From Nematostella vectensis (Eukaryota): a stretch of DNA of 64,000 bases. Position numbers and translations under genes: made by a program. The notes under the pieces were generated by a model that was given only the letters and a program-made list of their open reading frames with translations, was not told where the DNA came from and searched no databases. Positions 270 through 51,109 of this stretch are shown piece after piece. Position 1 is the first letter of the stretch, and every line of letters begins with the position of its first letter. The DNA lies in assembly GCF_932526225.1 (NCBI RefSeq), contig NC_064039.1, forward strand, positions 6,321,459 through 6,385,458. The letters are read 5' to 3'.

Positions 270-329
<60 letters not shown>

Positions 330-340
330 CGTGCGCCGAA
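270..340. repeat. (GT)n microsatellite of about 33 units, degenerating into (GCGT)n
   Basis: Uninterrupted gtgtgt... run visible from about 270 to 326, followed by gcgtgcgtgcgc. Confidence 0.95.
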
Positions 341-4100: not shown

Positions 4101-7100
4101 ACTATACTGGTGCTTAATCAAACTGGGCTTACTTATTCACTACACACCATACTGATGCTATTCAAACCGAGCTTAAGCCGTTATTCACTACACACTATAC
4201 GGATGCTATCCAAACTGAGCTAAAGCCCCTTATTCACTACACACCATACTGATGCTATTCAAACTGAGCTTAAGCCCGTTATTCACTACACACCATACGG
4301 ATGCTATCCAAACTGAGCTTTTAAGCCCCTTATTCACTACACACTATACTAGTGCTATTCAAACTGAGCTTAAGCCCCTTATTCACTACACACCATACTG
4401 ATGCTATTCCAACTGAGCTTAAGCCCCTTATTCACTACACACCATACTGATGCTATTCAAACTGATTTTAAGCCCCTTATTCACTACACACCATACTGAT
4501 GCTATTCAAACTGAGCTTAAGCCCCTTATTCACCACACACCATACTGATGTTATTCTAACTGAGCTTAAGCCCCTTATACACCACACACTATGCTGGTGC
4601 TTAATCAAACTGGGCTTACTTATTCACTACACACCATACGGATGCTATCCAAACTGAGCTTAAGCCCCTTATTCACTACACACCATACTGATGCTATTCC
4701 AACTGAGCTTAAGCCCCTTATTCACTACACACTATACTGATGCTATTCAAACTGAGCTTACTTATTCACTACACACCATACTGATGCTATTCAAACTGAG
4801 CTTACTTATTCACTACACACCATACTGATGCTATCCAAACTGAGCTTAAGCCCCTTATTCACTACACACCATACTGATGCTATTCAAACTGAGCTTAAGC
4901 CCGTTATTCACTACACACCATACGGATGCTATCCAAACTAAGCTTAAGCCCCTTATTCACTACACACTATACTAGTGCTATTCAAACTGAGCTTAAGCCC
5001 CTTATTCACTACACACCATACTGATGCTATTCCAACTGAGCTTAAGCCCATTATTCACTACACACTATACTGGTGCTTAATCAAACTGGGCTTACTTATT
5101 CACTACACACCATACTGATGCTATTCAAACTGAGCTTAAGCCCCTTATTCACTACACACCATACTGATGCTATTCCAACTGAGCTTAAGCCCCTTATACA
5201 CCACACACCATACTGGTGCTATTCAAACTGAGTCTAAGCCCCTTATACACCACACACTATACTGATGCTATTCAAACTGAGCTTAAGCCCCTTATTCACT
5301 ACACACTATACTGATGCTATTCCAACTGAGCTTTAGCCCCTTATACACCACACACCATACTAGATGCTATTCAAACTGAGCTTAAGGCCCTTATTCACCA
5401 CACACTATACTGATGCTATTCAAACTGAGCTTAAGCCCCTTATACACCACACACTATACTGATGCTATTCCAACTGAGCTTAAGCCCCTTATACACCACA
5501 CACTATACTGATGCTATTCAAACTGAGCTTAAGCCCCTTATACACCACACACTATACTGATGCTATTCAAACTGAGCTTAAGCCCCTTATTCACTACACA
5601 TCATACTGATGCTATTCCAACTGAGCTTAAGCCCCTTATACACCACACACCATACTGATGCTATTCAAACTGAGCTTAAGCCCCTTATACACCACACACC
5701 ATACTGATGTTATTCTAACTGAGCTTAAGCCCCTTATACACCACACACTATACTGGTGCTTAATCAAACTGGGCTTACTTATTCACTACACACCATACTG
5801 ATGCTATTCAAACAGAGCTTAAGCCCCTTATTTACTACACACCATACTGATGCTATTCAATCTGAGCTTAAGCCCCTCATTCACTACACACCATACTGAT
5901 GCTATTCAAACTGAGTTTAAGCCCCTTATTCACCACACACTATACTGATGCTATTCCAACTGAGCTTAAGCCCCTTATACACCACACACCATACTGATGC
6001 TATTCCAACTGAGCTTTAGCCCCTTATACACTACACACCATACTGATGCTATCCAAACTGAGCTTAAGGCCCTTATTCACTACACACCATACTGATGCTA
6101 TTCAAACTGAGTTTAAGCCCCTTATACACCACACACTATACTGATGCTATGCAAATGTTAATGACACTGAATTAAGCGCTTATCCACTGTAAACTAGACC
6201 AACACTAACTCATCTGAACTATGCCCCACCAGAACCTAGTGTTTAGAATTAAGCCCCTATCCACTGTTCATCATCAGACTAATAATAATCAAAACAAGTT
6301 AAGCTCTTACCCACTGTTTATACGATCAGCTCTAATAAAAATGAGCTAAGCCCCTCAGCACTGTATAAAGGCCAATGCTAAGCAAACTGAGCTGACTCCC
6401 TTATTCACTGTACAGAATTGAAATGCACAACACACCAGATACTGATGTCCAACACACACCAGATTCTGGTGCTTATCAAACTGAACCAGCCCATATCAAC
6501 TGTACATAAGACTGAGCCAAGCACCTTTTCCATCAAATTGGACTTAAGCCAGTTATCATCAGACTGATGCCTCCAGTTATATCATCAAACTGAGCTAAGC
6601 CCCTTGTACACAAGACAATCCTAATTCAACTCAGCTTAGCCCCTAGCCAACACACAAGGGGCCAATGCTAATCAAACTGAGCTACAAGTGCACTTTACGT
6701 CAAATTGAACTCAGCCAGTTATCCATCACATACCAGACAAATGCTAATCAAACTGAGCTAGTATATGGGAACAATAATAATCAAACTGACTAGGTCCCTT
6801 ATCAACCACACACCAGACTGATGCTAAGCATACTGAACTAAACCCCCTATTGTACACAAGACTGAGCTAAGCACCTTTTCCACTGTAAACCAGACCAATC
6901 CTAATTTAACTGTGCATGGCCCCTTATCCAATAATAATCAAAATGGAATTATGCACCGCACACCAGACTAATGCTAAGCAAACTGAGCTGAGCGCCTAAT
7001 CCATTGTACATAAGACCAATGCTATTCAAACTGGGCTAATCCATATATTCACTGTACATAAGACCAATGCTATTCAAACTGGGCTAATCCTTATAATCAC

Positions 7101-7190
7101 TGTAGTTGAACCCCATATCTGCTGTACAGGTGACCAATGCTAATCAAACTGAGTTGAGCCTCTTATCCACCACACACCAGGCAGGGCAGT
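1200..7190. repeat. Satellite DNA array of 44-49 bp monomers with a shared core (aatcaaactgagctaagcccctta...). Flanks are diverged; the 3230-6160 core is homogenised.
   Basis: More than 100 head-to-tail monomers. In the core, ctgagctta recurs at period 49 (for example 3542 and 3591). It alternates with a 44 bp variant that lacks agcccc. Outer monomers (1200-3230 and 6160-7190) share the motif with many substitutions. ORF-track ORFs here (1403-1612, 2991-3628) are repeat artefacts. Confidence 0.95.
3230..6160. repeat. Homogenised core of the 49/44 bp satellite. Consensus: ctgagcttaagccccttattcactacacaccatactgatgctattcaaa.
   Basis: About 60 near-identical monomers. Recurring subvariants (tacaccacacac versus ttcactacacac, ccaactgag versus caaactgag) suggest higher-order organisation. 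Confidence 0.9.
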
Positions 7191-7936
7191 AGAAGTGATT
7201 ATTTAACCTGAAAAGGAAAAAAATAATAAAAGTAACAGTTATTGATTAAGTGCCTTTTTGTAGAGGTTATATACAGTAAAAAAGAACATGCAAAACAACA
7301 GACAGGTGATACAACTATTGCAGGTAGACTGGGCAATTCCACATGAGATATGCAATATCAAGATTTTTTCAAATTACATTGAGCCTTCCAAACCATTGAG
7401 CCTTATGAAAATGATAAAATATTGAGAATTTGGGTTCACGCCCATTTCACAGGGCTCACTGAAAAAGGGGCTTGTGCCTTGGAGTGAAAAAAATTCCAGA
7501 TTTCTCACTTGTTTCTGCATGAGGACACATTATTGTGGACATTACTTAATGTCCACAACGTTGACATATTTAAGTTTAATTTAGGAAAAAAGCTTCACAT
7601 AAATGTGAAGAATCATTAAAATTCATCTTTTAGATACATGCATCTTTTATGTAAAAAATAAAAATTGAGAATATCTATCCTACTTATATCATATTTTTTT
7701 TTCAAAAAGAAAGGTTGATTTTTATGTTATCTCTGCAATACTTCTATTTCAATGAATAAAAAAAACTGGATGTCATTTTTTTGGGGAAAGCTACAGTACG
7801 ACTTTTGCAGTGAATGGTATGAGAAGCAATTTAAAATAGAATTAGAAACAAATGTCAATTTTTGTCTTTGGATGTGATGCACAACAATCATGAACAAAAA
7901 GAATGTAAACATCATGGAAATCATCATTCTCCATAC

Positions 7937-8416
7937 ACAGAGCTTCTGGAATTACGCAAAAAAAACCCTCAAAATTACGCGGGATTCTTTACTAAATTAT
8001 CCGCTACATTACACGGAATATCAACTGTTACGCCCAAACTACATTTTGTACCGAAGGAAAGCACGAAATAACTTGAAAAGGTGATTTTTTTGTGTGAAAA
8101 TAGGCAAGTTTTCATTGGCTCCGCTACCAGCCTATAAAAAAAGGTATTTTATTATTAGTCCTAGGCCTTCGCAGTTTAGCAAAAGAGCACCTAGTCATTT
8201 TATTTGTTTTCGAAATTCCGTTCGAAACATCGCACTCTTACAAAGAATATCTCTCTTTTTTTACGAGAAATAGAGGTAAGAACCCATCAGCTGTGCAATT
8301 AAATGTTTTGTCTTTCAAAATTTATGCAAATTATGTGGGATTATGTGGAAATTTGTGGATTACGCGGAAAAAGCCAAATTACGCGCTTCCGCACAAGCGC
8401 GTAATTCCAGAAGCCC
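7937..8416. mobile_element. MITE-like element of about 480 bp with 16 bp terminal inverted repeats gcttctggaattacgc / gcgtaattccagaagc
   Basis: 7942 agagcttctggaattacgc and 8396 gcgtaattccagaagccc are exact reverse complements. Subterminal aaattacgcg motifs occur at both ends. There is no coding capacity. Confidence 0.55.
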
Positions 8417-11400
8417 TGCATACATGAGATGTAAGACCAAAACAATGAGCTTGTCACAAGTTTGAAGAACAAGAGGCTAAAAGTAAACATAAAGGAGAAA
8501 CTTTTACATTTGGAAGGCCAGCTTAAAGTCACTTTGTTCCCTATAAAAATAGAAAAAATGTGCACTCTATAAACAAATGGAGGGTTCAACTTTGAAATAA
8601 ATATGAGTGTTTGCATAACTTGTATAAAATATTTGGATGTTTTGGATTGGACAAAAATCCACATTTATGCTGTTTTAAGTATGAGCAGAGCTTGATGTGC
8701 CCTAAAATTGGATTGGGATGACTTATAACTTCTGGTTTAGGGCTGGATTTCAATATAAATTGTTGCTGATTTGCTGCAATGATAATGCTATGGAGAACAT
8801 TTCTCATTTGTTATTTGAGAGAAGTAGGTACTATACCCATTATAGACCACAAAAATTGATGGCAAGGAAATTTAGAAAACGATCGCAAGAAGTGTTTTAC
8901 TGACCATATTATCGAAAGCTCTTACCTAATATCAGACTTCTTTGTGAGAGTAATACAAAAAAAAATGCAAGTATTTTAACTGTAACTAAAATACCACAGA
9001 CAATAATTGTTGACGAATTTAGTTTTTAAAAGTCATGTTTGTAAATGTCTGACAGCTCAAATTTATGTTGAATAATTCAGCAAATGTTAGACTGTCTGAT
9101 AATACATCGGGTTGCAAGGGTAAGGTACTGTCCAAACAAATCAGGAATACAGAGGCCAAATAGCATCCTGAGACATCAACAACAAAATGGAAGGTTTTTA
9201 AACTCGCCATGAGGTGCATGAGTAAAGATTATTTCTTGTTTTGGGAATTATAGCCAAATTCGTTGTTGTGCGACCTCCAAAAATCCAAAATCCCTTTCTT
9301 TGTTTGATAATGGTGCGTAGTCAATCAAACCAAACAATCAAAACCAGCTGTAATAAACACCAAGTCTTGTAAAAAGCTTTGGAAAACATTGTTCTCTAAA
9401 TGTCAGTTCTTCAACTTGACGAGTGATTTTTATGATTTTTTTTTGCAACTGTCCAATAATAGGTACCGTCTGAAAATAGGTATGAGTACCTTAAAGGTTC
9501 TGTAACACCCTATCAAACAAATTTCATTATCCTCTTTAACAAATATTCTGGCATAGAATACAAATATTGTGGTCAATTTGTTTAAAAGCCATGTAAATGT
9601 TTATTCATATTAACATTATATACAGTCATAAAAACACTAACAGCTTTCTTAACTTGAACTGTTTTAATATTAGCTTATCTATTTGATAACCCATTAAGCA
9701 TTGTGGGTTATGAGACATGGGCTCCTTAAAAGTGTGGTATGCCAGTTCAGGAAGAAAGGAAGTAATATAATGGTTCATTGTCCTTGTGAAAATGCCAAAA
9801 AGTCATGAAGATATTCAGCAGAAATCGCAAGCTGTGCACCAACTATCAGTGTAATGGTGAACGGTGAACGGAAAGATGCCGAGAAATGGCAATTTCTAGT
9901 GAGAATTCACCCCAATTCAGAAGGAAATCTTTGCAGTTATGGCTTCTCTTTTAATAAAACTGTACCTGTATCTCCTTAAAAGGAAACAGTGTGAACAGGA
10001 AACCATTTAACCATTTCATAATCCCATGACAATTAAAGACTTATTAGAGATGACATTAAATTTTAACAAAGAAGCAGTAAGCTGTTCCTCTGTGCTGTTC
10101 ATTGATTAGTGTCTGCAGATAAGTCTTGTTGTTTTCTCTTGAATTTGTAGAGTTATCATAGATAAATATACACATTTTTTTGTCAAACAGTTCCTCTGAC
10201 TTGATTTCAGAGGTTCGCAATAATGCACGGTTATTGATTAAATCGACCAAATCATGATAGCTACACAGAGGAAATCTTGCATGTGATTCACCCTGAGCTT
10301 ACATAATATTCTATCTAATCCTTGCAATACTTTGAAGCTTTGAAAACTGTTTGGTAAACTGGAAAAACCGAAAGTGTGCGACGTTCTGCTACCAAGCTGC
10401 CATTTTGAACTATTGGTTTACTGCGAATGAAATGCCAGAGTGGCCTGGAGTCGAATGTTTTGATGGCCAATGTTAATCCATTTTTTCCCTCCTTCCCAAA
10501 CTGGCATTCTCCCCACTGCTTAGAGCTTAGCTGCTTAGTGTATCCAACCGGAAGTAATATTGCAAAAGTGAAAAGGTAAACTTTTAGGCCAAAATGGACA
10601 AAAATACCACAATATTCATATTGGTTGCCAGATTTGCTAAAGATGACCCCCGAGGTGTTAACAGGAACTAATGAACTAGGTGTTCACATAGTCATGTTTG
10701 GGCTGAAGAAAACAAATGTGCCATATGACTGTCAATTAGTTTAACTAAGACAAAATAAAGATGCAGTAAACAAAGCATAAATATTGAGAATAAAACCTAA
10801 AATCGTCAGAAATGTGTAATGAAAGCCCGTTTAGATTTGAAAGGCAATTAAAAAAAAACGGTTCAAATTTTAATTTGGATTTTTCGCGCTTATTTTAAAA
10901 GGTGTCATTAAGTACTCATAAGTATTGCGCGCATGTACAAACAACAAACTTCAAAAATTTATAGCCTGCGTAGCGGCTATAAAAAAATTATCGCTTCAAA
11001 ACCTATCCAAACATCGCTTATTTTCCGTTTTGTTTCAAGAAAGATTGATGAGTAGGTTATGTTATATATAGAGCCACTTTATTTTATGCTTGTCTTTACG
11101 GAGCTACGCACTCACTGAAGAAATGAATAAATTTTGTTCGGCTCGAGCGAGGGCCGAGTACGGGAGAATACAAGGTTGAGGATTAGTTAATAAAACAAAT
11201 CACGATTATCATTATCATTTAAACTTACCTTCCGGATGTGCTCCAAAATCTTTATACAAAGTATTTAGAAGGTAAAAATGGATGTTTAACTTCGGATGGT
11301 GGATGATTTTCGATGATGAAGGATCGTGCAACCACGGCTCGTCTCGAAAACAGTTCTCCAACTCAAACTGTCTTCAGATAAACTGCTGCCAAGGTAACAC

Positions 11401-12449
11401 TACAAATGATATATACCACAGGAGTCCCGTCGAATGAGCGTGCATTATTCCTTCTGTATCTCAATGATGTATTTATCGATTCTTTTATTAATACTTATTT
11501 ACTTTAACGAAAATTTGAAAGACCTGTCAACTAATCTTCAGATTATATAATAAGGAGGTATCTCAGAAATTATGAAAAAATATAAAACGTAGAAATCGAG
11601 GATCAATGTTTTTACAGCCTAATAGTGACTGGGTGTTTCCGAAACTTTAAATTAAAGTCCGTATAACCACCTTTCACTAGCAGAAAGAAACATTGATAAG
11701 CTTTCAAATTATGAAAAGGAAATTGAATTTGATTGAGATTTAGTTTTCCTACAGAACTTTGAAAATTGATGGTCATTTTCTTGGCCGCACAAAACGGGGA
11801 TTGAATCTTAGGGTACTATCGTTTTCCGTTTTGGCAAAGAAGTCTAAACAACGCTTTTAAATAATATCGATCAACCACTCCTTTGTTATTGTTTAATACA
11901 GTGGTTTATTTGCAAAAAAACTTCAACATAACAATCCACGAATGAAGTCTGATACGTTATTGACGATATTTGATTGAAAATATTTTGGTTACTCGCTTGA
12001 ACTAGCTGATGGAAACGGATGTTTTGTGTAATTCGGCATTAAGTAGGAGTATAAAATGGTGGCGTGATTAGCCTTCTTTAAGCTCGTAAAAATTCTGAGA
12101 CGGCAATCACAAAATAATAACTCGATTTTGCATTGCTACCTACACTAAAAAAATTGCATTGCTACCTACACACTACCCAAAGGAAAACGGAAGAAATGTG
12201 AAGGGAATCATCACAGGTAGCTCGAGCTCTTTATTTATCTCTATTGAGTAAACATAAACATGAAAAAGAAACAAAAGGCTTATCGAAGAGGAAAGTGTTG
12301 TTTAGGGCGTTAGCCCTTATTGACAGCAAAATAGACCATCCCCATTCACAGTAGGGATTGTTAAAAATAACTCCGTTTGCATAGATTACACCGTGTAAGA
12401 GTGCATCATATATGTTTTCGCAAAAGTATTTGCATTTGTATTTGTGTGT

Positions 12450-13126
12450 GTGGTAATCCCCGTAGCTTAGATAACGCATTTGGTGCGGACCTACGGTTGT
12501 ACAAGATTATCCATGTGCGTGTTACTCTCCATAGCTTAGATAACGTGTCTGGTGTTGTCCTCATAACTACGGTTGTACAAGATTATCCGTGTGTGTGGTA
12601 CTCTCCGTAGCTAAGATAACGTATCTGGTGTGGTCCTCATAACTACGGTTGTACAAGATTATGGGTGTGTGGTACTCTCCGTAGCTTAGATAACGTGTCT
12701 GGTGCGGTCCTCGTAACTACGGTTGTACCAGATTATCCGTGTGCGTGTTACTCTCCATAGCTTAGATAACATGTCTGGTGCGGTCCTCGTAACTACGGTT
12801 GTACCAGATTATCCGTGTGTGTGTTACTCTCCATAGCTTAGATAACGTGTCTGGTGTTGTCCTCATAACTACGGTTGTACAAGATTATCCGTGTGTGTGT
12901 GTGGTACTCTCCGTAGCTTAGATAACGTATCTGGTGTGGTCCTCATAACTACGGTTGTACAAGATTATCCGTGTGTGGTACTCTCTGTAGCTTAGATATC
13001 GTGTGTGATGTGTTCCTCGTAACTACGGTTGTAAAAGATTATCCGTGTGTGGTACTCTCCGTAGCTAAGGATAACGTGTCAGTTGCGGTCCTCATAACTA
13101 CAGTTGTACAAAATTATCCGTGTGTG
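12450..13126. repeat. Satellite 2 array a. Monomers of 74-78 bp: ccgtgtgtgtggtactctccgtagcttagataacgtgtctggtgcggtcctcataactacggttgtacaagattat.
   Basis: About 9 tandem monomers. Each carries a short (GT)n core. Confidence 0.9.
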
Positions 13127-13861
13127 GTAAACTCAGAAAATCACCTAGTAAGCCCGCCCCGATAAGCTCTCCAACTCCTGTTATCCTCGGACCGAAAAGA
13201 AAATCCTGCTAACTGACAGGAGCACAAGAGCTCCAGTAAATGTACCGGGAATCTCAACTTATGCGAAAAATTGTACCAAAAAATCGATGTTTTTTTTCTA
13301 ATATTTATAACTGAATTCATAGATCAATTACTCATCTTCAGTTTGCTAAGTTTAGATAATCAATTTGTTGCTTTTTTGTAATCAAATCTCGCCATTTTCA
13401 AGTCGTGTCGAGTTGTAGTAAATTTTCATCAGAGAGGAATAGAAACCCTTTCAATGGTTTTACAGAACACGGCAAGAAGAGGACCAATCACGGCTAACAT
13501 CATTTTATGCGATCACTTATCGGCCAATAAGGTTTCACCTCGATTTGACATGTAGCTGTCACCGTGCGCCTAAAAGATTGTAAACAACTTTGCGAAGTTA
13601 TTGGAAGTTTTGCTACAACATGAGGCTTTATTACTTGTTTTTTAATCTTTTTTTTTTAAGTGCCTACGCTTAACGCGATGTTTGGTGTCTCAGCTGTCTA
13701 AAAACATCGAGAAATCAAGGATTTCTTATTAAAACTCATTCATTATTCAGCCAATCTATTCATAAACTTTGAAAATTATAAATAATTACCTTATTCCCGA
13801 AAACTCTCCCGGTAACCTAACGGGTCCGGTAATTACCGGTCCATTTCAGAAACGACCCCCT
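13127..13861. repeat. Unique-type spacer, copy 1, embedded in satellite 2. It is duplicated at 14946-15770.
   Basis: About 735 bp that re-appear at roughly 97% identity after the next satellite block. Shared strings include aaatcacctagtaagcccgccccgataagctctccaa and ggtaattaccggtcc. Confidence 0.85.
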
Positions 13862-14945
13862 AATGTGGTCCCCATAACTACGGTTGTACAAGATTATCCG
13901 TGTGTGTGGTACTCTCCATAGCTTGGATAACGTGTCTGGTGCGTTTCTCGTAACTACGACTGTGCAAGATTATCCTTGTGCGTGGTAATCTCCCTAGCTG
14001 AGATAATGCATTTGGTGCGGTCCTCATAACTACGGTTGTGCAAGGTTATCCGTGTGTGTGGTACTCTCCATAGCTTGGATAACGTGTCTGGTGCGTTCCT
14101 CGTAACTACGACTGTGCAAGATCATCCTTGTGCGTGGTAATCTCCGTAGCTGAGATAATGCATTTGGTGCAGTCCTCATAACTACGGTTGTAAAAGTGTA
14201 TCTGTGTGTGTGGTACTCTCCGTAGCTTAGATAACGTGTCTGTTGCGGTCCTCGTAACTACGGTTGTACAAGATTATCCGTGTGTGTGTGTGGTACTCTC
14301 AGAAGCTTAGATAACGTGTCTGTTGCGGTCCTCATAACTACGGTTGTGCAAGATTATCCGTGTGTGGTACTCTCCATATCTTAGATAATGTGTCTGGTGC
14401 GGTCCTCATAACTACAGTTGTACAAGATTATCCGTGTGTGGTACTCTCGATAGCTTAGATTACGTGTCTGCGGTCCTCATAAATACGGTTGTACAAGATT
14501 ATCCGTGTGTGTGGTACTCTCCGTAGCTTAGATAACGTGTCTGGTGCGGTCCTCGTAACTACGGTTGTACAAGATTATCCGTGTGTGTGGTACTCTCCGT
14601 AGCTTAGATAACGTGTCTGCGGTCCTCATAAATACGGTTGTACAAGATTATCCGTGTGTGTGGTACTCTCCGTAGCTTAGATAACGTGTCTGGTGTGGTC
14701 CTCGTAACTACGGTTGTACAAGATTATCCGTGTGTGTGGTACTCTCCGTAGCTTAGATAACGTGTCTGTTGCGGTCCTCATAACTACGGTTGTACAAGAT
14801 TATCCGTGTGTGTGGTACTCTCCGTAGCTTAGATAACGTGTCTGGTGTGGTCCTCATAACTACGGTTGTACAAGATTATCCGTGTGTGTGGTACTCTCCG
14901 TAGCTTAGATAACGTGTCAGTTGCGGTCCTCATTACTACAGTTGT
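13862..14945. repeat. Satellite 2 array b (about 14 monomers)
   Basis: Same 74-78 bp monomer as array a. Confidence 0.9.
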
Positions 14946-15770
14946 ACAAAATTGTCCGTGTGTGGTAAACTCAGAAAATCAACTAGTAAGCCCGCCCCGA
15001 TAAGCTCTCCAATTCCTGTTATCTTCGGACCGAAAAGAAAATCCTGCTAACTGACAGGAGCACAAGAGCTCCCGTAAATGTACCGGGAATCGCATCTTTT
15101 ATGCGAAAAATGGTACCAAAAAATCGATGTTTTTTCCTATTATTTATAGCTGAATTCATAGATCAATTACTCATCTTTAGTTTGCTAAGTTTAGATAATC
15201 AATTTGTTCCTTTTTTTGCTATCAAATCTCGCCATTTTCAAGTCGTGTCGAGTTGTAGTAAATTTTCATCAGAGAGGAATAGAAACCCTTCCAATGCTTT
15301 TACAGAACAAGGTAAGAAGAGGACCAATCACGGCTAACATCATTTTATGCGATAACTTATCGGCCAATCAGGTTTCACCTCGATTTGACATGTAGCTGTC
15401 ACCGTGCGCCTAAAAGATTGTAAACAACTTTGCGAAGTTATTGGAAGTTTTGCTACAACATGAGGCTTTATTACTTGTTTTTTAGTCTTTTTTTTAAAAA
15501 AGTGCCTACGCTTAACGCGATTTTTGGTGTCTCAGCTGTCTAAAAACATCGAGAAATCTAGGATTTCTTATTAAAACTCATTCATTATTCAGCCAATCTA
15601 TTCATAAACTTTGAAAATTATAAATAATTACCTTATCGGGAGCCGGTAAACAACCAGCGTTAAGAAACGCATTTCCGCACCCGAAAAAGTATCCCGAAAA
15701 CTCCCCCGGTAACCTAACGGGTCCGGTAATTACCGGTCCTTTTCAGAAACGACCCCCCTTATGTGGTCCC
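14946..15770. repeat. Spacer copy 2 (duplicate of 13127-13861) with a roughly 60 bp insertion at 15647-15705
   Basis: Collinear with spacer copy 1 across the whole length. The extra segment is cgggagccggtaaacaaccagcgttaagaaacgcatttccgcacccgaaaaagtatcc. Confidence 0.85.
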
Positions 15771-16200
15771 CATAACTACGGTTGTACAAGATTATCCGTG
15801 TGCGTGGTACTCTCCGTAGCTTAAATAACGTGTATGGTGCGGTCCTCATAACTACGGTTGTACAAGATTATCCGTGTGTGGTACTCTCCGTAGCTTAGAT
15901 AATGCATTTGGTGCGGTCCCCATAACTACGGTTGTACAAGATTATCTGTGTGTGTGGTACTCTCCGTAGCTTAGAAAACGTGTGGTGCGGTCCTCATAAC
16001 TACGGTTGTACAAGATTATCCGTGTGTGTGGTACTCTCCGTAGCTTAGATAACGTGTCTGGTGCGGTCCTCGTAACTACGGTTGTACAAGATTATCCGTG
16101 TGTGTGGTACTCTCCGTAGCTTAGATAACGTGTGTGGTGCGGTCCTCGTAACTACGGTTATACAAGATTATGTGTGTGTGTGTGTGTGTGTGTGATGGGG
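15771..16200. repeat. Satellite 2 array c (about 5 monomers), ending in (TG)n plus a G-rich tract
   Basis: Monomers identical to arrays a and b. The array ends in tgtgtgtg...gatgggggaaggggtgaggggggttg. Confidence 0.9.
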
Positions 16201-16620
16201 GAAGGGGTGAGGGGGGTTGAAATGCCATTGTCCAGTGCTTAGTGATTTAATCATTTGACACTTGAAAACTTTTATTATATAACTTATATCAACTGGAACG
16301 TTTACAGCAAATATCAATTAGCCATAAAAATACGTTTATAAACATATTTGGCTAAAAGTTATTTTGAATTTTGAACAATGGAAGTTGATATTGTTGCGCA
16401 ACGGTGAAACTTGTAGAAAGCTATGTTGGGCATTCACTTTAATCTAAACGAATGTGAATAAAACGTGAAGAGTACATATCAAAGTCAAAATAGATCTTCA
16501 GTCAAAACGTAAGGGTTTTGACATAATGTTCTCAGAATCGTGTTACAGGGCTCAAAGCCCTGGTGCAGTTGACAATTGATAGGGAACTTTGAATAGCATC
16601 ATTGAAACAGACGTAAGCGG

Positions 16621-16750
16621 CTGTTTCTTTCTCGCTTTTTATCATAATACTGCAAACTACTTTTTCTTGACAAAGAGATTTGAGGGTTGTCATATGACAA
16701 TGTCCACATGTAAACATATCTTCTTCTGTGTCATCAAGCTTGGTGCAAAT
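16621..16750. repeat. Direct repeat A1 (130 bp). It is a duplicate of the 3' end of the RPA-like ORF and equals A2 at 17317-17447.
   Basis: tctttctcgctttttatcataatactgcaaactactttttcttgacaaagagatttgagggttgtcatatgacaatgtccacatgtaaacatatcttcttctgtgtcatcaagcttggtgcaaatctg appears twice, flanking segment B1. Confidence 0.9.
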
Positions 16751-16751
16751 C

Positions 16752-17318
16752 TGTACGAAAGCTACACCCCGAAAATAAATGATTTTTTTCATCTTAACCT
16801 TTTCTGGCCTTGGGCTAAACACATAGATATGTATTGATTACACTCTTTTTTTATAAGAACCTTTTTTTATAAGAATGTCCAGCCTGAGATTTCACCAAAT
16901 TTTAAGAACATGCAGACGCTCAGATAGAAGTAAAATATTGTTTTGATGTTCTAAAATACGGAATCAAATTGTTTATAACAACAACCAACAACCATAAACA
17001 TCATTGTTATTTTATTATGTGTGTAATTTTCTTATATTCATGAAGTATAATATTTTTATACACTGAAATTTAAGATCATCCATAAGAACTTTTTCAGCCT
17101 CAAAATGCTCCAAAAATAAGAACGGCCCAGCCTCAACTAAAAATTAGATGTTCTTATAAAAAGAGAGGAGTGTATAATAGCTGGCTTTGTGAAAGATATG
17201 TCTTACATCTTTAAGTATACCATTGAAGATAGCCAGGCTAATTTTGTTTTGTCATATCCTTAGCTCTCAAAGATACTGGTATTCTTGAGCTGTTTGACGT
17301 GATATTGGGTAATGAAGA
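16752..17318 (+). pseudogene. Captured or duplicated fragment of HAD copy 1. It covers the last roughly 480 bp of intron 1, the splice acceptor and the first 85 bp of exon 2. It is a copy of 21724-22318.
   Basis: About 98% identical to 21724-22318. It ends in ccttag|ctctcaaagatactggtattcttgagctgtttgacgtgatattgggtaatgaagactac (encoding ALKDTGILELFDVILGNEDY), then breaks abruptly into repeat A2. Confidence 0.85.
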
Positions 17319-18060
17319 CTACTCTTTCTCGCTTTTTATCATAATACTGCAAACTACTTTTTCTTGACAAAGAGATTTGAGGGTTGTCATATGACAATGT
17401 CCACATGTAAACATATCTTCTTCTGTGTCATCAAGCTTGGTGCAAATCTGGTTGCAGATTAAGCAGGACCTGTTTCGTTTTATCTGTCCGATAACTTGTC
17501 CCTTTAAGAGGTTACTTTGGATTTCCGGTGTATCCAAGTTCACGTTGATATTTTCGTCTATTTCCTTGATTGATGTGTTCGGGTTTTGTGTTCACATATT
17601 TCTCATCTTGATAAACTCTAACGGTGAGGTTTTGGAAATGGTATGATTTACGAGCAACTACCTCCTCGATCTTGTTTTCCCATAAAACTAATTTTATGGA
17701 GTCACTCTGATCTGCTAAGATACTGTCGATTTTGTAAGTTTCATTGTTGCCCTTTATTATCCTTTGCTTGGTTTCGTCTTTCTTCATGATTTTGCCTTTG
17801 AGATCGACCTTGGTGTACTCGTTGCTACCAAGCGCCTGTTCTATTGTAAGCAAGTGATCATCGAGTGAATTATTGAACTCAAAGTGGACCTCCTTATATT
17901 GTACGATTTGGGCATTTTTGTCGATCGTATATTCTTTGTCATTCTTTTTCAAAGCTTCTAACTTAACAGGACTTTTAGCTTGGAAGTGTGGCTGGAGAGT
18001 CTTTCTTTTCTTGGGAGAATAACATACCATCTGGACAGTATCCGTTGATGAAGTTTGCAA
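17319..18060 (-). mobile_element. RPA70-like OB-fold plus C-x2-C...C-x-H-C zinc-ribbon ORF in two overlapping frames (182 aa and 74 aa). Probably encoded by a Helitron-like element.
   Basis: Minus-strand ORFs 17512-18060 and 17319-17543 overlap in different frames, indicating a frameshift or short intron. The C-terminal part (CLICNQICTKLDDTEEDMFTCGHCH) is a zinc ribbon like RPA70 DBD-C. The upstream part is OB-fold-like. The adjacent HAD fragment looks captured. No host-gene context is visible. Confidence 0.4.
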
Positions 18061-20099
18061 ATTGAGTTTAAAATAGCTGGTTCTTTTCCTGTTATTTGCT
18101 GTTTTTACTTCTGTTAACTCATGAATGTAACCTTCAAGAGCTGCAACAATAAAATTAAGAATAAAGTGTAAATAACAAATATACTTATGTGTATAAAAAA
18201 TATTTCCTTGTAAGTAAAAATATTTGAATACCTATTTTATCTATATTTGACTGACTGTTTACGGCGATAATCACTAAGAGTTATTTTGGGATATATAGAG
18301 AGAATAAGTTAGGGGTGCACGGAGAGATTGTGTTTTGATTTAGTTTGCAATTCTATTTTAGTGAAATACAAAAGACTTTGCTCTCGACCAATAGAAATGC
18401 TTACTAAACCAAGTGGAACTTGTTTTCGACACTCGTCCACTCTAAATCATTTGTTAACATCATGTTGGTAATATGTATTGTTGGTTACTTGTAGGCGTGT
18501 CCTCGTTTTTTTCTGTTGTTTTTCTGATATTCCTAAATGTGTTCTTACGCTAAGGTAATAATTGCAGTTAGTGATATTCCAGTTCATCTTACCTTGACGT
18601 AGTTGGTGATTCCATGTTGGTTTCAACTATAAACTGGAATAAAGTAAAATAACAATAATATATAAAAACGTCACAGCTGTGCATTCATACATTTAGTGTT
18701 ACTGAGTACTGTTGGAAAACGGATAATTGCTGTATAAAGATTGTGTAAAACAGGTTCTGTTATGTTAGAATCCGGGATACTATACATTATCTATATACTA
18801 AATTGTAAGCAATGCATAAACTGCTTTAAGATCAGAGAAATAAGTCTCTAATGGATTGGCTTTTACTCCTTCTGGGATATTTGTGTAAATGTGATCTATG
18901 CATGTTTTATTATCTGTAGTGTAGCATGACATTATTGCTGGTCAGTAGCGGCACTAATCAATCGGCGTCCACGTGCGATAGATTCGTGACTTTAGCTAGC
19001 GCTTTGAAACGAATACAGCCCGAAGTACATCCGAAGTCTAATTTTCCCAGCATGCCTCAAGGGCGTAATATCACTTTTTAGTTTTTTTTTTGGACGTGAT
19101 GACATAGTAGCTACCGCACTTAGTGTAACATTCACTCTAGGGTAACATGCGTGAGGTAAGAGCCTGCGGCTAAAACGAAGTAAATTGTATATAACTAAAG
19201 CTGCTCAATTGAAATATATATAACATCATTAAATACAGCATCAAATAGTACAGGGAAAGCTGTATTTCTAAAAATGATGAGAAATTAAAAAACAAACAAC
19301 AAGCAAATCATCAACAATGTGACGCAAGTCGAATCTGCGGAATTTTAGGAACGAATTCCTTCGTAATAAAATCTTTCTTTGAAATGATCAACGGATACAA
19401 ATGGGCTTTTTGCTTTCGCTTTCTTTTTCATTTCATGACATTTGTTTTCTATTTTCATCATATTTGCTTCGTCAGTTTCCCTATTTGGAAATCACTGCTA
19501 CGATTACCATAAAATATGTTTTAAAAATCCTACGCGACTTTTTCGTGTCGTAGTCAAAATCGTAGTGGAGTCGTTGACTTGATTTACACTCTACGACACG
19601 CGTTGTGGAAGTGAAGCAGGCCTACTCTACTCGATCTCATCCCCCCTCCCCCTTCCTCTCACTCCATCTTTTGCTCTCTCATCTTCTACGAAATCTAACG
19701 ACACTGGTCTCTTGGGCTACCTGTGGCTGGCTTAGCAAAATTTATGTCACGATGACTCAGCCTCATCAATGGGTTCATCTAATTAAACCCAAATAAATTC
19801 TGAGCGATTTATTGTTAGCAATTCGTTAAGACTCAGCGAACAGGAGCAGAAGTCGTTTCAAAGCGTAAATTGTAATTGGAATTTTATTGTTTAGAAGGAC
19901 AATAATAAATAGACTCTATCAAACAATCACATTTTGTCGAGCAGTGAAATAGTTTATCATCAAGCAGGTTATTTTGCCGTAACTCTAGAAATAACTCTAA
20001 TTGGAGTTTGATTTTCTGTTTTTGCGTTTTTCTTCGAAAAAGGACGTCAAATATAAATATAAAGCTGTGTATCCAAGGTGTCAGGCTGAAGAAATTAGT

Positions 20100-20433: not shown

Positions 20434-20812
20434 ATGGCCCCAGAAAGATTGACTATTTCTGAGGGTGTGAAAGGTTTAGTATTTGATTGTGATGGCACTT
20501 TATTGGACACCATGCCTCTGCACTGGCGAGCCTGGTGCAAGATTTGCGACGAGACAGGACTGAGGTTCAACAAAGAAGACTTCTATGTTCTAGCTGGAGT
20601 ACCTGGAAAAAAGATAATTGACGTCCTAGCCAGACAACAGGGAGTCGTACTAGATCCTCTTGAAGTGTACGAGAGCAAAAGGAAATATTTTCTATCAGAA
20701 CTGGCGTCCGTGAGTCCGATTCAGTGCGTTTTGAAATACGTCCACGAAGCGAGAAAGCGTGGCATTCCTGTCGCAGTTGCCTCTGGAAGTTCGAAGAAGC
20801 AGGTTGAAAAAG
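20434..20812 (+). CDS. HAD-superfamily hydrolase (subfamily IA-like), copy 1, exon 1
   Basis: Protein: MAPERLTISEGVKGLVFDCDGTLLDTMPLHWRAWCKICDETGL...GIPVAVASGSS. HAD motif I is DxDGT. Motif II is the S/T in VAVASGSS. The donor is GAAAAAG|gtaaat, phase 1. Confidence 0.85.
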
Positions 20813-21723
20813 GTAAATCGTCATAAAAAGATTAAAATTAATAGCTAGTCAAGCTAACTTATGTCTTTGGATATAGCATAAGCGAATTGGCGCAAAATAA
20901 TGTCTTTTGTTGTGTTCTTCCATGAGGACTTGTCGACAATCAACGAATGAATGACGCGCGAAAGTTCGAGCGGTCGAAGTCATATTTTTGCTGTGTGAGA
21001 AACACTTTCGTGAGAAATACCATAGAGCTAGTTCTAAGCGGCAAGCGTTTATTTTTGTGTTAACCGAAAAACATGATAAAAATCTCTTCACTGAAGGCGT
21101 TTTTCAAGCAAGAAAATGCGGTCCAAAGTCCATCTTCAAACAATAACACTATATTTCTGCTTCATCACCCTTATAAATCTTATAAAAAAGTAGCAAAGTG
21201 TGATTGAATCCTTTTCTAAGCCCTTGCCCTAAGAAGATATGGTCTTTTGTTTTTAGTATACGCGAATCCTGCTGAGAATAAGCGGATAAATCGAATGATG
21301 TTTTTGCCGTGCTTGCCCGCATGGATTTCTTGAGTCTGTGACGTGGGAGTTTTGGGGGGCGTTGTCGAGGGCAGGTATTGCTTGCTATTGTTAGGTCGAA
21401 TTCCAACTGAGACCCTCACGTTGCTAGATAAATTCGTTTGACGTTGCCAAAACGAGATTCCCTTTTCAAAAGAATTTGTTTGATTGTTGAATTAATGAGG
21501 AGCTAGGTTAAATCTATGAAAAATTTGAAACCAAAATCGAGAACATGACGTGACCGATGCTTTGAGTTGTATTACCCACCAAACACACACAACGCTTTTT
21601 TGATCCCGACGTAGATTCTCTGAAGGTTACAAATATAATCACCTCGAAATATTCGATTTCAACGGTCTGGTGAGCAAATAACCCCTTTTCGTATTTAGTG
21701 GTGTTTGCTTACTTTTGTTTCAA

Positions 21724-22233
21724 GTACGGAAGCTACACCCCGAAAATAAATGATTTTTTTCACCTTAACCTTTTCTGGCCTTGGGCTAAACACATAGATA
21801 TGTATTGATTACACTCTTTTTTCATAAGAACCTTTTTTATAAGAATGTCCAGCCTGAGATTTCACCAAATTTTAAGAACATGCAGAGGCTCAGATAGAAG
21901 TAAAATATTGTTTTGATGTTCTAAAATACGGAATCAAATTGTTTATAACAACAACCAACAACCATAAACATCATTGTTATTTTATTATGTGTGTATTTTT
22001 CTTATATTCATGAAGTATAATATTTTTATACACTGAAATTTAAGAACATCCATAAGAACTTTCTCAGCCTCAAAATGCTCCAAAAATAAGAACGGCCCAG
22101 CCTCAACTAAAAATTGGATGTTCTTATAAAAAGAGAGGAGTGTATAATAGCTGGCTTTGTGAAAGATATGTCTTACATCTTTAAGTATACCATTGAAGAT
22201 AGCCAGGCTAATTTTGTTTTGTCATATCCTTAG
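21724..22233. repeat. Intron-1 segment of HAD copy 1 that is duplicated at 16752-17257
   Basis: Near-identical to the B1 segment. Both start with the shared string (g)aagctacaccccgaaaataaatgattttttt. Confidence 0.85.
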
Positions 22234-22381
22234 CTCTCAAAGATACTGGTATTCTTGAGCTGTTTGACGTGATATTGGGTAATGAAGACTACAGTAATCA
22301 CAAACCACACCCTGATGCCTTCTTGACAGCCGCCAAGTATTTGGGTGTTGCAGCCAAAGACTGCTGGGGATTTGAGGACAC
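22234..22381 (+). CDS. HAD hydrolase copy 1, exon 2
   Basis: Acceptor ccttag|. Protein: (A)LKDTGILELFDVILGNEDYSNHKPHPDAFLTAAKYLGVAAKDCWGFEDT. Motif III K is in HKPHPD. Donor AC|gttagt. Length is 148 nt, identical to copy 2 exon 2. Confidence 0.85.
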
Positions 22382-26284: not shown

Positions 26285-26640
26285 ATTTACTTTTCTTACT
26301 TTCCTTTATCAAATACATATAAGTCCTCCCTGCCATACATATTATTGGTAAAAAAATTAACTAGTTCTTACTTTTCTTTATGAAATACATAAAAGTCCTC
26401 CCTGCCTTACATATTGGAATAACAATTTAACTAGTGCTTACTTTCCTTTATCAAACACATATAAGTCTTCACTGCCATACATTCAAATAACAATTCAACT
26501 AGTGCTTACTTTCCTTTATAAAATACATTTAAGTCCTCCCTGCCCTACATATTATTGGAATAACAATTCAACTAGTTCTTACTTTCCTTTATCAAATACA
26601 TATAAGTCCTCCCTGCCATACATATTATTGGAATAATTGT
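26285..26640. repeat. Tandem repeat, about 5.5 copies of a roughly 62 bp unit, in intron 2 of HAD copy 2
   Basis: Unit: ctagtgcttactttcctttatcaaatacatataagtcctccctgccatacatattattggaataacaattcaa. Confidence 0.85.
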
Positions 26641-26929
26641 TCAACTAGAAATCCTAACAGAAGAGGGGCATAGCCAAAGTAAGAGTTTTTTGTCAAGGAG
26701 GAGGGGAGGGTAGAGCATTTCTCAGTCATTCTCATCGTCTTTAATAAAACTTCTTCAGGGCAGACCTGGCCTGCCCTGAAGAAGTCGTAGTAAAGGCTAT
26801 TAAAGGCGACTATTACTACTGGAAGTCCAATGCCACATTCTTTCATCTGCTTTTTGTAAAACTTCTTACTCTACTGGAGCACCGCTGTAGGCCTTGTGAT
26901 ATTGGGGAAGAGGCACAATATGGAAACAT

Positions 26930-31851: not shown

Positions 31852-32049
31852 GTAAGCATTTTTTTATACCAATACTCAACCGTAAAAACATTTTTTTTAT
31901 AGATTTACTTGTGATTCGCATTCATCCAATATATATTCTGTTGCGCTTGCATCCATTCAACATACTGTGTGCTACTCGTAGCGCTTGTGCAACCTAATCC
32001 CTTGCGATTTGACTGGGTTTCCTGTGATTACTGGGATATTTGCCGTCAC

Positions 32050-32880
32050 AGCGGTTCATCTACGAGCACAGGAAACCCGTTAAGCACGCCAGGGACTAGG
32101 CTGAACACAGGAAACCCGGTAAGCACGCCAGAGACTAGGCTTGACACAGGAAACTCGGTTAGCACGCCAGAGACTAGGCTTGACACAGGAAACCCGGTAA
32201 TCACGCCAGAGACTAGGCTTGACACAGGAAACCCGGTAATCACGCCAGAGACTAGGCTTGACACAGGAAACTCGGTTAGCACGCCAGAGACTAGGCTTGA
32301 CACAGGAAACTCGGTTAGCACGCCAGAGACTAGGCTTGACACAGGAAACCCGTTAAGCACGCCAGGGACTAGGCTGAACACAGGAAACCCGGTAAGCACG
32401 CCAGAGACTAGGCTTGACACAGGAAACCCGGTAATCACGCCAGAGACTAGGCTTGACACAGGAAACTCGGTAAGCACGCCAGAGACTAGGCTTGACACAG
32501 GAAACTAGGTAAGCACGCAAGAGACTAGGCTGAACACAGGAAACCCGGTAAGCACGCCAGAGACTAGGCTTGACACAGGAAACTAGGTAAGCACGCCAGA
32601 GACTAGGCTTGACACAGGAAACCCGGTAAGCACGTCAGAGACTAGGCTTGACACAGGAAACTAGGTAAGCACGCCAGAGACTAGGCTTGACACAGGAAAC
32701 CCGGTAAGCACGCCAGAGACTAGGCTGAACACAGGAAACCCGGTAAGCACGTCAGAGACTAGGCTGAACACAGGAAACCCGGTAAGCACGTCAGAGACTA
32801 GGCTGAACACAGGGAACCCGGTAAGCACGCCAAAGACTAGGACTCAGGAAACCCGGTTAGCACACCAAGGACAAGGCAGT
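32050..32880. repeat. 40 bp satellite of about 21 copies in LMF intron 4. Unit: gacacaggaaacccggtaagcacgccagagactaggctt.
   Basis: Period 40, for example ttgacacagg at 32141 and 32181. ORFs 31969-32508 (+) and 32046-32498 (-) stay open through the array because the unit lacks stop codons in several frames. They are repeat artefacts. Confidence 0.9.
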
Positions 32881-50900: not shown

Positions 50901-51109
50901 GACGTCAAACTATGGGAGAGGATAACATCAGATGACAACCACTGCCTGAGTTGCATGCTGCCGAAACGGAAAACCCGCAGCCTGAGGAAAAGGGGGCATG
51001 ATTTTATCTTGCCGCAAGTAAAGACTGAGCGTTTCAAACGCTGTTTTGTAAATAATGTCTTTTTAACCTTATTTAGTAGAGAAGTATATAAGTAATTAGT
51101 ATATAAGTA

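What the first reader, a model, noticed from the sequence alone, without database searches (positions are those of the whole stretch)
16600..18070. Host-gene fragment (HAD intron 1 plus exon 2 start) captured between 130 bp direct repeats beside an RPA70-like ORF: Helitron-type gene capture?
A 567 bp piece of HAD copy 1 (16752-17318) is copied about 5 kb upstream at roughly 98% identity. It covers the intron-1 tail, the splice acceptor and 85 bp of exon 2. On both sides it is bounded by a 130 bp direct repeat (16621-16750 and 17317-17447). On the minus strand, the second repeat copy is the zinc-ribbon-encoding 3' end of an RPA70-like OB-fold ORF (17319-18060). Helitrons capture host gene fragments, and animal Helitrons often encode RPA-like proteins. 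The high identity suggests recent capture.
Basis: partly seen in the sequence, partly recalled or inferred. Interest (0 to 1): 0.7.

Follow-up and report, generated by a model that had tools for sequence, protein, structure and literature searches.

The report
Local repair scar in dead Helentron
A 569-bp copy of a neighbouring gene's intron/exon edge, flanked by a 128-bp duplication, sits inside a decayed rolling-circle transposon (Helentron) gene in one Nematostella haplotype but not in another assembly, so it looks like an ordinary DNA break-repair scar rather than transposon gene capture.

Summary
A = 16626-16753 and 17323-17450 (128 bp, 100% identical). B = 16754-17322 (569 bp), 98.4% identical to 21724/5-22292, which is the last 509 bp of HAD intron 1 plus 59 bp of exon 2 (not 85 bp).

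The minus-strand ORF is RPA70-like, including a zinc-ribbon DBD-C fold. Its relatives lie downstream of OTU-Rep-helicase-endonuclease ORFs, which marks them as Helentrons. The window also keeps the last 44 codons of such an ORF at 18935-18807. So the ORF is the 3' relic of a Helentron. It has no Rep/Hel of its own and carries a 1-nt frameshift shared by both assemblies.

The Nematostella v1.0 scaffold has the same relic at the same locus, but with one copy of A, no B, and an intact ORF C-terminus. The window haplotype has the A+B insertion and, 77 bp away, a 95-bp deletion with a 3-nt filler. Junction microhomology is 1 and 0 nt, and the donor lies 5 kb away and is intact.

Best reading: one haplotype-specific, error-prone break-repair or template-switch event in a dead element, not transposition-coupled Helitron capture. 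No function is expected and interest is low.

The parts
16626..16753 (.). Direct repeat copy A1 (128 bp). On the minus strand it reads on into the original 3' end of the RPA-like ORF (16625 down to 16532).
   Evidence: Identical to 17323-17450. The v1.0 allele has this sequence once, contiguous with both flanks.
16754..17322 (+). Insert B: a copy of the HAD copy-1 intron-1 tail (16754-17263), its AG acceptor and the first 59 bp of exon 2 (17264-17322), in the same orientation as the donor.
   Evidence: 98.4% identical to 21724/5-22292. It differs from the cis donor at 9 sites: at 6 of them B carries the v1.0 allele and 3 are private to B. B is absent from this position in v1.0.
17323..17450 (.). 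Direct repeat copy A2 (128 bp). On the minus strand it is the current, truncated 3' end of the RPA-like ORF, and the B/A2 junction supplies a TAG stop (17321-17319).
21725..22292 (+). Donor segment in HAD copy 1 (end of intron 1 plus the start of exon 2). It is intact. One G (21724 = 16753) is shared with the end of A, giving 1 nt of microhomology; there is none at the other junction.
16532..18141 (-). RPA70-like pseudogene (Helentron accessory ORF). It is interrupted by the 1-nt frameshift near 17566, by the A2+B insertion, and by a 95-bp deletion with a CCC filler at 16547-16549.
   Evidence: Family alignment A1; Ssb-like_OB Pfam hits in 14 of 16 members; PDB profile hit to Sulfolobus SSB at E 3.5e-9; predicted fold closest to RPA70; frameshift shared with v1.0; allelic differences 3 nonsynonymous to 1 synonymous.
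16546..16562 (.). Junction of the window-specific 95-bp deletion. Read on the minus strand it is GAG|CCC|TGTAACACG, which forms the hairpin CAGGGC-TTTGA-GCCCTG. It lies 77 bp from A1.
   Evidence: The v1.0 allele instead reads ...LSDIDTTEIKSLLLTAGKQVMIADKAIISQFITL*, matching the C-terminus of the family.
18807..18935 (-). Last 44 codons and the stop of a Helentron Rep/helicase/AP-endonuclease ORF. Homology stops abruptly upstream, near 18936-18941, so the element is 5'-truncated or internally deleted.
   Evidence: tblastn against the L002 2272-aa ORF (residues 2225-2268) gives 61% identity, E 2.6e-9; the same region matches the endonuclease ORF tails of L004 and L005. The L002 ORF carries OTU, DUF6570, Helitron_like_N, PIF1 and Exo_endo_phos domains.
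20434..22381 (+). HAD-superfamily gene copy 1: exon 1 (20434-20812), intron 1 (20813-22233) and exon 2 (22234-22381). Splice sites are inferred from reading frame and GT/AG dinucleotides.
   Evidence: Pfam HAD_2 and Hydrolase hits; sequence reading; the v1.0 gene call for a HAD protein at the same place.

Best explanation
The window comes from Nematostella vectensis. Positions ~16.5-18.94 kb on the minus strand hold the 3' relic of a Helentron, an endonuclease-encoding Helitron-like rolling-circle transposon. What survives is the last 44 codons of its Rep/helicase/endonuclease ORF, followed by its RPA70-like accessory gene. The relic is dead: it has no Rep/Hel and carries a 1-nt frameshift present in both available haplotypes. 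On the window's haplotype only, a DNA break in the relic was repaired sloppily. 128 bp of the target (A) were duplicated, and 569 bp copied from the intron-1/exon-2 edge of the HAD gene 5 kb away (B) were placed between the two copies. 77 bp to one side, 95 bp were lost and replaced by a 3-nt filler. The most likely route (inferred) is either a staggered break whose complementary overhangs were both filled in and then end-joined around a synthesis-copied filler fragment, or serial template switching of one nascent strand (A, then the HAD intron, then back to the start of A, then a snap-back and skip). Shown: the anatomy, the RPA70-like and Helentron identity of the ORF, and the absence of the insertion and deletion from the other assembly. 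Inferred: the repair pathway and that all lesions arose in one event. The insertion has no expected function; it only adds a stop codon to an existing pseudogene and leaves the HAD gene intact.
For: Species and locus: P0001 is 99% identical and named N. vectensis. The v1.0 scaffold DS469510.1 (L001) is colinear with the window at ~98-99% identity. Presence/absence: L001 has one A, no B and no Ns. Over 11.7 kb of allelic alignment, the only large indels outside tandem repeats are the 697-bp A+B insertion and the deletion 77 bp away. Junctions show 1 nt and 0 nt of microhomology, and the deletion junction forms a 6-bp snap-back hairpin. The donor is intact and lies in cis, 4971 bp away in the same orientation. 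Relic status: the frameshift is shared, allelic differences are 3 nonsynonymous to 1 synonymous, and only the endonuclease tail is left with no other Rep/Hel match in 64 kb. ORF identity. Helentron linkage of homologues: Rep/helicase/endonuclease ORFs lie upstream on the same strand in L002, L005 and L006, and adjacent in L004. PMC4067079 reports that Helentrons, including a N. vectensis family, encode Rep/Hel/endonuclease plus OTU and RPA ORFs. Opposite-strand nicks that are filled in and joined by NHEJ give tandem duplications (PMC8355091).
Against: Only two assemblies were compared, so a collapse in v1.0 or a misassembly in the window cannot be excluded. No reads or population data were available, and an exact-sequence look-up was uninformative because its positive controls were also absent. 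The published fill-in experiments used ~43-nt overhangs, shorter than the 128 bp here, and I found no report of a 569-bp filler between the copies. With 0-1 nt of microhomology, MMBIR-type switching is not specifically supported. B is not identical to the cis donor: there are 9 differences, and at 6 of them B matches the v1.0 allele. So the template may have been another haplotype, or the event is not very recent. That the deletion and the insertion were a single event is inferred from proximity alone.
Confidence: 0.68

Rival explanations
1. Helitron/Helentron gene capture in the usual sense: the HAD fragment was picked up during rolling-circle transposition (read-through, chimeric transposition, or filler synthesis during transposition) and now travels with the element.
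For: The recipient is Helentron-derived. Helentrons and Helitrons do carry host gene fragments (PMC4067079). The fragment spans an intron/exon edge, as DNA-level captures do.
Against: The allelic copy at the same locus lacks the fragment, so acquisition followed insertion and needed no transposition. The window has no Rep/Hel and no identifiable termini. The fragment is flanked by a 128-bp duplication of the element's own sequence, which capture models do not predict. The donor is only 5 kb away, and the fragment interrupts the ORF rather than lying between ORFs and a terminus.
Confidence: 0.06
2. First step of capture by the filler-DNA route: the relic is an internally deleted, non-autonomous Helentron that keeps both termini and can still be mobilised, and it has just acquired a host fragment by break repair.
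For: The repair signature is exactly what the filler-DNA idea needs. Autonomous Helentrons exist in N. vectensis (PMC4067079). Homology to the endonuclease ORF ends abruptly at ~18936, which could be a deletion junction rather than a truncation.
Against: No subterminal inverted repeats, 3' palindrome-plus-terminus, or 5' end were found. The element is at the same site in both haplotypes. The closest relative in a database of 5.8 billion proteins is only 49% identical and is not labelled Nematostella, which suggests an old, low-copy relic.
Confidence: 0.1
3. Assembly artefact: either the A-B-A structure is a misassembly in the window's assembly, or it is real and fixed and the v1.0 Sanger assembly collapsed it.
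For: Only two assemblies were compared. One of B's three private differences is a +1 in a T-run, a typical long-read consensus error. The same v1.0 scaffold also lacks a 15.9-kb satellite block present in the window, so it is not complete here.
Against: B is a distinct third haplotype, with 9 differences from the window donor and 7 from the v1.0 donor. That is not expected from a mis-join of identical reads. Mis-joins do not normally create an exact 128-bp duplication around a 569-bp piece from 5 kb away. The v1.0 locus has no gaps and differs by SNPs and by the 95-bp segment, so it is a different haplotype rather than a collapsed copy of this one.
Confidence: 0.12
4. Retrocopy: a fragment of unspliced HAD pre-mRNA was reverse-transcribed at a nick by a LINE (target-primed reverse transcription), leaving an unusually long 128-bp target-site duplication.
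For: Target-site duplications flank LINE-mediated insertions (general knowledge). A LINE with endonuclease and RT ORFs lies at 48.5-51.1 kb. B is in the sense orientation of a transcribed region.
Against: B has no poly(A) or LINE 3' tail at either end. It ends in mid-exon and starts in mid-intron. The 128-bp duplication is far longer than usual. There is no complementarity between the nick-side sequence and the 3' end of B.
Confidence: 0.03

Closest known systems
Helentrons (endonuclease-encoding Helitron-like rolling-circle transposons; Thomas et al. 2014, PMC4067079), including the autonomous N. vectensis family
   Same: There is an accessory RPA70-like ORF of ~320-380 aa downstream of an OTU-Rep-PIF1 helicase-AP endonuclease ORF. 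The window retains the endonuclease C-terminal tail and the RPA-like ORF in the same order and on the same strand as in L002, L005 and L006.
   Different: The window has no Rep, helicase or OTU, no identifiable subTIRs, palindrome or termini, and the RPA-like gene is a frameshifted pseudogene. It is a relic, not an element.
Helitron/Helentron gene-fragment capture (maize and bat Helitrons; Culex and Phytophthora Helentrons, PMC4067079)
   Same: A host gene fragment with intron and exon sequence, copied at the DNA level, lies inside Helitron-derived sequence.
   Different: The fragment was acquired in situ on one haplotype. It is flanked by a 128-bp duplication, its donor is 5 kb away, there is no evidence that it was ever transposed or amplified, and it lies inside an ORF.
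Tandem duplications from fill-in of staggered breaks followed by NHEJ (Schimmel et al. 2021, PMC8355091), with filler DNA
   Same: An exact direct duplication of the target abuts the junction with near-zero microhomology, and a nearby deletion has a small snap-back-like filler.
   Different: The duplicated tract (128 bp) is longer than the ~43-nt overhangs used in those experiments, and a 569-bp templated fragment lies between the copies. The pathway was not tested here.
Replicative template switching (FoSTeS/MMBIR, serial replication slippage; named from my own knowledge, no paper read here)
   Same: The order A, distant template, back to A, followed by a further skip 77 bp on, is what serial switching of one nascent strand would give. 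All templates lie within 5 kb.
   Different: Junction microhomology is only 1 and 0 nt, where MMBIR typically shows 2 nt or more. The scale is much smaller than classical complex rearrangements.
Cellular RPA70 (RPA1)
   Same: The predicted structure has three OB folds. The best whole-model PDB matches are RPA70 chains (9pd4_N, 4gop_C, 1fgu, 1jmc). The C-terminal domain model matches RPA70 DBD-C with its four-Cys zinc ribbon (1l1o, 8rk2, 9mj5, 6i52).
   Different: Identity to RPA70 is only 13-17%. By sequence, only the central OB reaches significance, and it hits archaeal SSB rather than RPA70. The family proteins are ~320-380 aa, shorter than the ~430-residue RPA70 DBD-A/B/C chains matched (4gop_C, 9pd4_N), and show no matched N-terminal extension. 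The family is transposon cargo.

Membership tests
Helentron | Rep (HUH) plus PIF1-like helicase ORF | tested here: not met
   tblastn with the 2272-aa L002 ORF and the L004 Rep and OTU ORFs finds nothing in the 64-kb window except the last 44 codons. Outside a LINE, there is no ORF of 120 aa or more with such domains.
Helentron | [quoted passage not shown] | tested here: met
   Only as a remnant. Window 18935-18807 aligns with the final residues and the stop of the endonuclease-bearing ORFs of L002, L004 and L005 (61% identity, E 2.6e-9; motifs IDHIYTN and ETYFSD[H/L]KA).
Helentron | Accessory RPA-like ORF downstream | tested here: met
   for identity; for the same gene order in three homologous loci.
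Helentron | Subterminal inverted repeats, 3' palindrome, T-flanked termini | tested here: inconclusive
   No inverted repeat links the 18.9-20.4 kb and 16.2-16.5 kb regions above background. The only perfect hairpin downstream of the ORF is GTCAAAAC-CCTTAC-GTTTTGAC (16501-16522), with no conserved counterpart in L002-L004. One copy cannot define the ends.
Canonical Helitron | 5' TC, 3' hairpin plus CTRR, insertion between A and T | tested here: not met
   The hairpin at 16501-16522 is followed by CTGA but then by A, not T, and no 5' end was found. Relatives carry the endonuclease domain typical of Helentrons, not Helitrons.
Helitron-type gene capture | The captured fragment is part of the mobile unit and is present in transposed copies | not testable with these tools
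   No N. vectensis genome search was available. Within the window there is no second copy.
Helitron-type gene capture | The fragment was acquired with or before transposition to the present site | tested here: not met
   The allelic relic in v1.0 sits at the same locus and lacks B and the second A.
RPA70-like ssDNA-binding protein | SSB/RPA-type OB fold detectable by sequence | tested here: met
   Profile against PDB hits Sulfolobus SSB at E 3.5e-9. Pfam Ssb-like_OB is found in 14 of 16 family members, and the window's own reconstructed ORF gives a sub-threshold REPA_OB_2 hit (E 0.023).
RPA70-like ssDNA-binding protein | DBD-C: an OB fold with an embedded four-Cys zinc ribbon | tested here: met
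   The four Cys are invariant in alignment A2. The AF2 model has pLDDT 90.5. Its top nine Foldseek PDB hits are all RPA70 C-terminal (DBD-C) chains, with E from 1.9e-4 to 2.9e-2 and TM ~0.56. Sequence alone gives no RPA70 hit.
Break-repair duplication with templated filler | An exact target duplication flanks an insertion copied from an intact donor | tested here: met
Break-repair duplication with templated filler | An empty (pre-insertion) allele exists | tested here: met
   The v1.0 scaffold has a single A contiguous with both flanks. The caveat is that this rests on one assembly.
Break-repair duplication with templated filler | The repair pathway (NHEJ, TMEJ or MMBIR) | not testable with these tools
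   Only footprints are available: 1 and 0 nt of microhomology, and a CCC filler that forms a hairpin at the neighbouring deletion.

The most novel reading that the evidence does not exclude
The locus could be a natural snapshot of how Helitron-family elements acquire host gene fragments by the filler-DNA route, caught on one haplotype with the empty allele still segregating. The donor may carry scars. The v1.0 allele has an 18-bp deletion ending 4 nt from B's left donor boundary and a SNP 2 nt beyond its right boundary, and B shares 6 alleles with v1.0. That would point to a nick-initiated, strand-displacement copy from the homologous chromosome.
Probability: 0.08. Interest if true: 0.5.

Novelty: new member of a known kind. 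Interest (0 to 1): 0.2.

Why it matters
It matters little for biology at large. The insertion disrupts a gene that was already dead and leaves the HAD gene untouched. Its value is as a cautionary case and a small illustration. A host gene fragment inside Helitron-derived sequence is not by itself evidence of Helitron capture, and comparison with a second haplotype can separate in-situ repair scars from transposition-coupled capture. It is also a clean natural example, with its empty allele, of duplication plus templated filler in a cnidarian germ line. It adds one annotated Helentron relic with an RPA70-like DBD-C-bearing ORF to the N. vectensis genome.

Tried and rejected
1. Pfam on the raw ORF pieces gave no OB/RPA hit. 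Identity only emerged after reconstructing the ORF and building the family alignment.
2. A PDB sequence-profile search with the C-terminal domain gave no RPA70 hit. Only the fold comparison did.
3. Searches for subterminal inverted repeats and Helitron or Helentron termini found nothing above background. DNA of homologous loci is too diverged to align outside the ORFs.
4. An exact-sequence look-up of junction-spanning ORFs in the 15-billion-protein collection, intended as an independent check of the junctions, was uninformative because the HAD control ORFs were absent too.
5. I considered whether B is a MITE transposition. B contains a weak inverted repeat (16843-16873 / 17137-17167, 77% complementary). 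However, B extends 90 bp and 155 bp beyond it into unique intron and exon sequence, and no other copies occur in the window. Rejected.
6. I tried dating the event from B-donor divergence. Allelic divergence is too heterogeneous, at 0-3.7% per 500 bp, and the three sequences form a star (private changes: B 3, window donor 6, v1.0 donor 4). The result is only weakly informative.
7. The LINE-mediated retrocopy idea was rejected on anatomy: there is no tail, and B starts in mid-intron and ends in mid-exon.
Full report
**Observation.**
The A-B-A structure is real.
- A is 16626-16753 and 17323-17450, 128 bp with 128/128 identity.
- B is 16754-17322 (569 bp). It matches 21724/5-22292 at 98.4%, in the same orientation and 4971 bp away. 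Nothing else in the window resembles A or B.
- The donor lies in the first of two tandem HAD-superfamily genes (Pfam HAD_2 and Hydrolase).
- From the exon-1 donor (AAA G|gtaaat), the AG at 22232-22233 and the reading frame, B holds the last 509 bp of intron 1 plus 59 bp of exon 2.
- One G is shared at the A1/B junction and no base is shared at the B/A2 junction. The B/A2 junction creates a TAG that ends the minus-strand ORF.

**Source organism and second allele.**
The ORF's best database match is a 172-aa 'predicted protein' of Nematostella vectensis at 99% identity. Its locus on v1.0 scaffold DS469510.1 (L001) is colinear with the window. In L001:
- A occurs once and is contiguous with both flanks.
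- B is absent from this position.
- The locus has no Ns.

Over 11.7 kb of allelic alignment there are 127 substitutions. Outside tandem repeats, the only large indels are the 697-bp A+B insertion and a window-specific loss 77 bp away. That loss removes 95 bp and replaces them with CCC. It deletes the ORF's C-terminus, which in L001 reads ...LSDIDTTEIKSLLLTAGKQVMIADKAIISQFITL* and matches the family. The new junction forms the hairpin CAGGGC-TTTGA-GCCCTG, which looks like a snap-back templated filler.

**What the ORF is.**
I removed B+A2 and corrected one extra G near 17566. This gives a ~300-aa reading frame that aligns end to end with fifteen 216-378-aa proteins from other assemblies at 26-49% identity.
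- The family profile hits the Sulfolobus SSB OB fold at E 3.5e-9.
- 14 of 16 members hit Pfam Ssb-like_OB.
- An AlphaFold model (pLDDT 80) has RPA70 chains as its best PDB matches: 9pd4_N, then 4gop_C at E 3.9e-12 over 361 columns, and 1fgu and 1jmc further down.
- A separate model of the C-terminal domain (pLDDT 90.5, four invariant Cys) has RPA70 DBD-C chains as its top nine matches.

So 'RPA70-like with a zinc-ribbon DBD-C' holds at the fold level, although sequence alone does not reach RPA70.

**Link to Helitrons.**
Six homologues could be placed on contigs.
- In L002, L005 and L006, Rep/helicase ORFs lie 1.5-2.7 kb upstream on the same strand. In L002 this is a single 2272-aa ORF with OTU, DUF6570, Helitron_like_N, PIF1 and Exo_endo_phos domains.
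- In L004, such ORFs lie next to the homologue on the other strand.
- L003 and L007 show no such ORFs.

This is the Helentron architecture described by Thomas et al. 2014, who also report an autonomous Helentron family in N. vectensis and RPA and OTU accessory ORFs (PMC4067079).

In the window, tblastn with these ORFs finds only 18935-18807 on the minus strand. That stretch is the last 44 codons and the stop of the endonuclease-bearing ORF (61% identity, E 2.6e-9). Homology breaks off abruptly upstream. No other Rep/Hel remnant exists in the 64 kb. No termini, subTIRs or convincing 3' palindrome could be found.

The relic is a pseudogene. The frameshift is shared by both assemblies, and the four allelic substitutions in the ORF are 3 nonsynonymous to 1 synonymous.

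**Interpretation.**
The capture mechanism is not supported.
- The same dead relic sits at the same locus without the fragment in another haplotype, so B arrived in situ, after the element had inserted. The frameshift shared by both alleles shows the ORF was already decayed before the haplotypes diverged.
- A 128-bp duplication of the recipient's own sequence around a fragment copied from 5 kb away, with 0-1 nt of microhomology and a second small lesion 77 bp off, is the footprint of error-prone break repair or serial template switching.
- Filling in both complementary overhangs of a staggered break and then joining by NHEJ is an experimentally shown source of tandem duplications (PMC8355091).
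- The 569-bp filler and the single-event assumption are inferences.

**Age and donor.**
B differs from the cis donor at 9 sites. At 6 of these it carries the v1.0 allele, and 3 are private, one of them a +1 in a T-run. The three sequences form a star, and local allelic divergence ranges from 0 to 3.7% per 500 bp. The event is therefore not demonstrably very recent, and the template may have been another haplotype.

One oddity remains. The v1.0 donor allele has an 18-bp deletion ending 4 nt from B's left boundary, and a G/C SNP 2 nt beyond its right boundary. This could be coincidence in a variable region, or it could be donor-side scarring. I could not test it.

**Rivals.**
An assembly artefact in either assembly cannot be excluded without reads. 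B being a distinct third haplotype and the exactness of the duplication argue against it. A LINE-mediated retrocopy is unlikely because B has no tail and starts in mid-intron and ends in mid-exon. A still-mobilisable non-autonomous Helentron that has just acquired filler DNA is the most interesting reading not excluded, and it needs a genome-wide copy search.

**Verdict.**
The structure is real and correctly spotted, and the ORF was correctly guessed. It is most likely an ordinary haplotype-specific repair scar in a Helentron relic. It has no expected function and low novelty.

Noticed in passing
window 288-16178: A 15.9-kb non-coding block is absent from the v1.0 scaffold, which joins window ~16179 directly to window ~287. 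The block is rich in satellites: 48/49-bp arrays at 1782-7104 and 76-bp arrays at 12446-16182. It is bracketed by (TG)n runs at 270-333 and at ~16170-16195. This is either a large haplotype indel or a collapse in v1.0. It abuts the 3' side of the Helentron relic, and Helentron derivatives are reported to carry tandem repeats (PMC4067079). No link was shown.
   Followed up: partly
window 13070-13860 and 14908-15757: A ~790-bp spacer is repeated at 94-97% identity with ~1.84-kb spacing between the 76-bp arrays, giving a higher-order repeat. It ends in a segment with the 14-bp palindrome CCGGTAATTACCGG.
   Followed up: no
window 21711-21728 and 22294 (versus L001): The v1.0 allele of HAD intron 1 lacks 18 bp ending 4 nt from the left boundary of B's donor segment. 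It also has a G/C SNP (Ser/Thr in exon 2) 2 nt beyond the right boundary. This may be coincidence in a SNP-dense region or donor-side scarring.
   Followed up: partly
window 16843-17167 and 21814-22137: A weak MITE-like inverted repeat (31 nt, 77% complementary, core GTTCTTATAAAAAGAG) lies inside HAD intron 1 and therefore also inside B. The motif occurs only in these two places in the window.
   Followed up: partly
window 20434-~23000 and 25011-~27600: There are two tandem HAD-superfamily paralogues on the + strand, both also called as genes in v1.0. Only copy 1's intron was the donor.
   Followed up: partly
window 48492-51095 (+): A fragmented LINE has an Exo_endo_phos_2-like ORF (E 2.3e-5, below the Pfam cut-off) and an RVT_1 ORF (E 9.6e-15), split by frameshifts. 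Its endonuclease does not match the Helentron tail at 18.9 kb.
   Followed up: partly
window 31969-32508: Long ORFs on both strands run through a tandem repeat encoding ~12-residue units (TPETRLDTGNPV/S...). This is probably a minisatellite rather than a gene.
   Followed up: no
window 26293-26648: In a tandem-repeat region downstream of HAD copy 2, v1.0 has 147 bp more than the window.
   Followed up: no
L003 14333-14921: The locus of the closest full-length homologue (P0002) contains a second, partial copy of the RPA-like C-terminal region about 4 kb downstream of the gene.
   Followed up: no
window 18850-18852 versus L001: In the relic's endonuclease tail, the v1.0 allele keeps the conserved SDH motif (ETYFSDHKA), whereas the window allele has SDL.
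   Followed up: no
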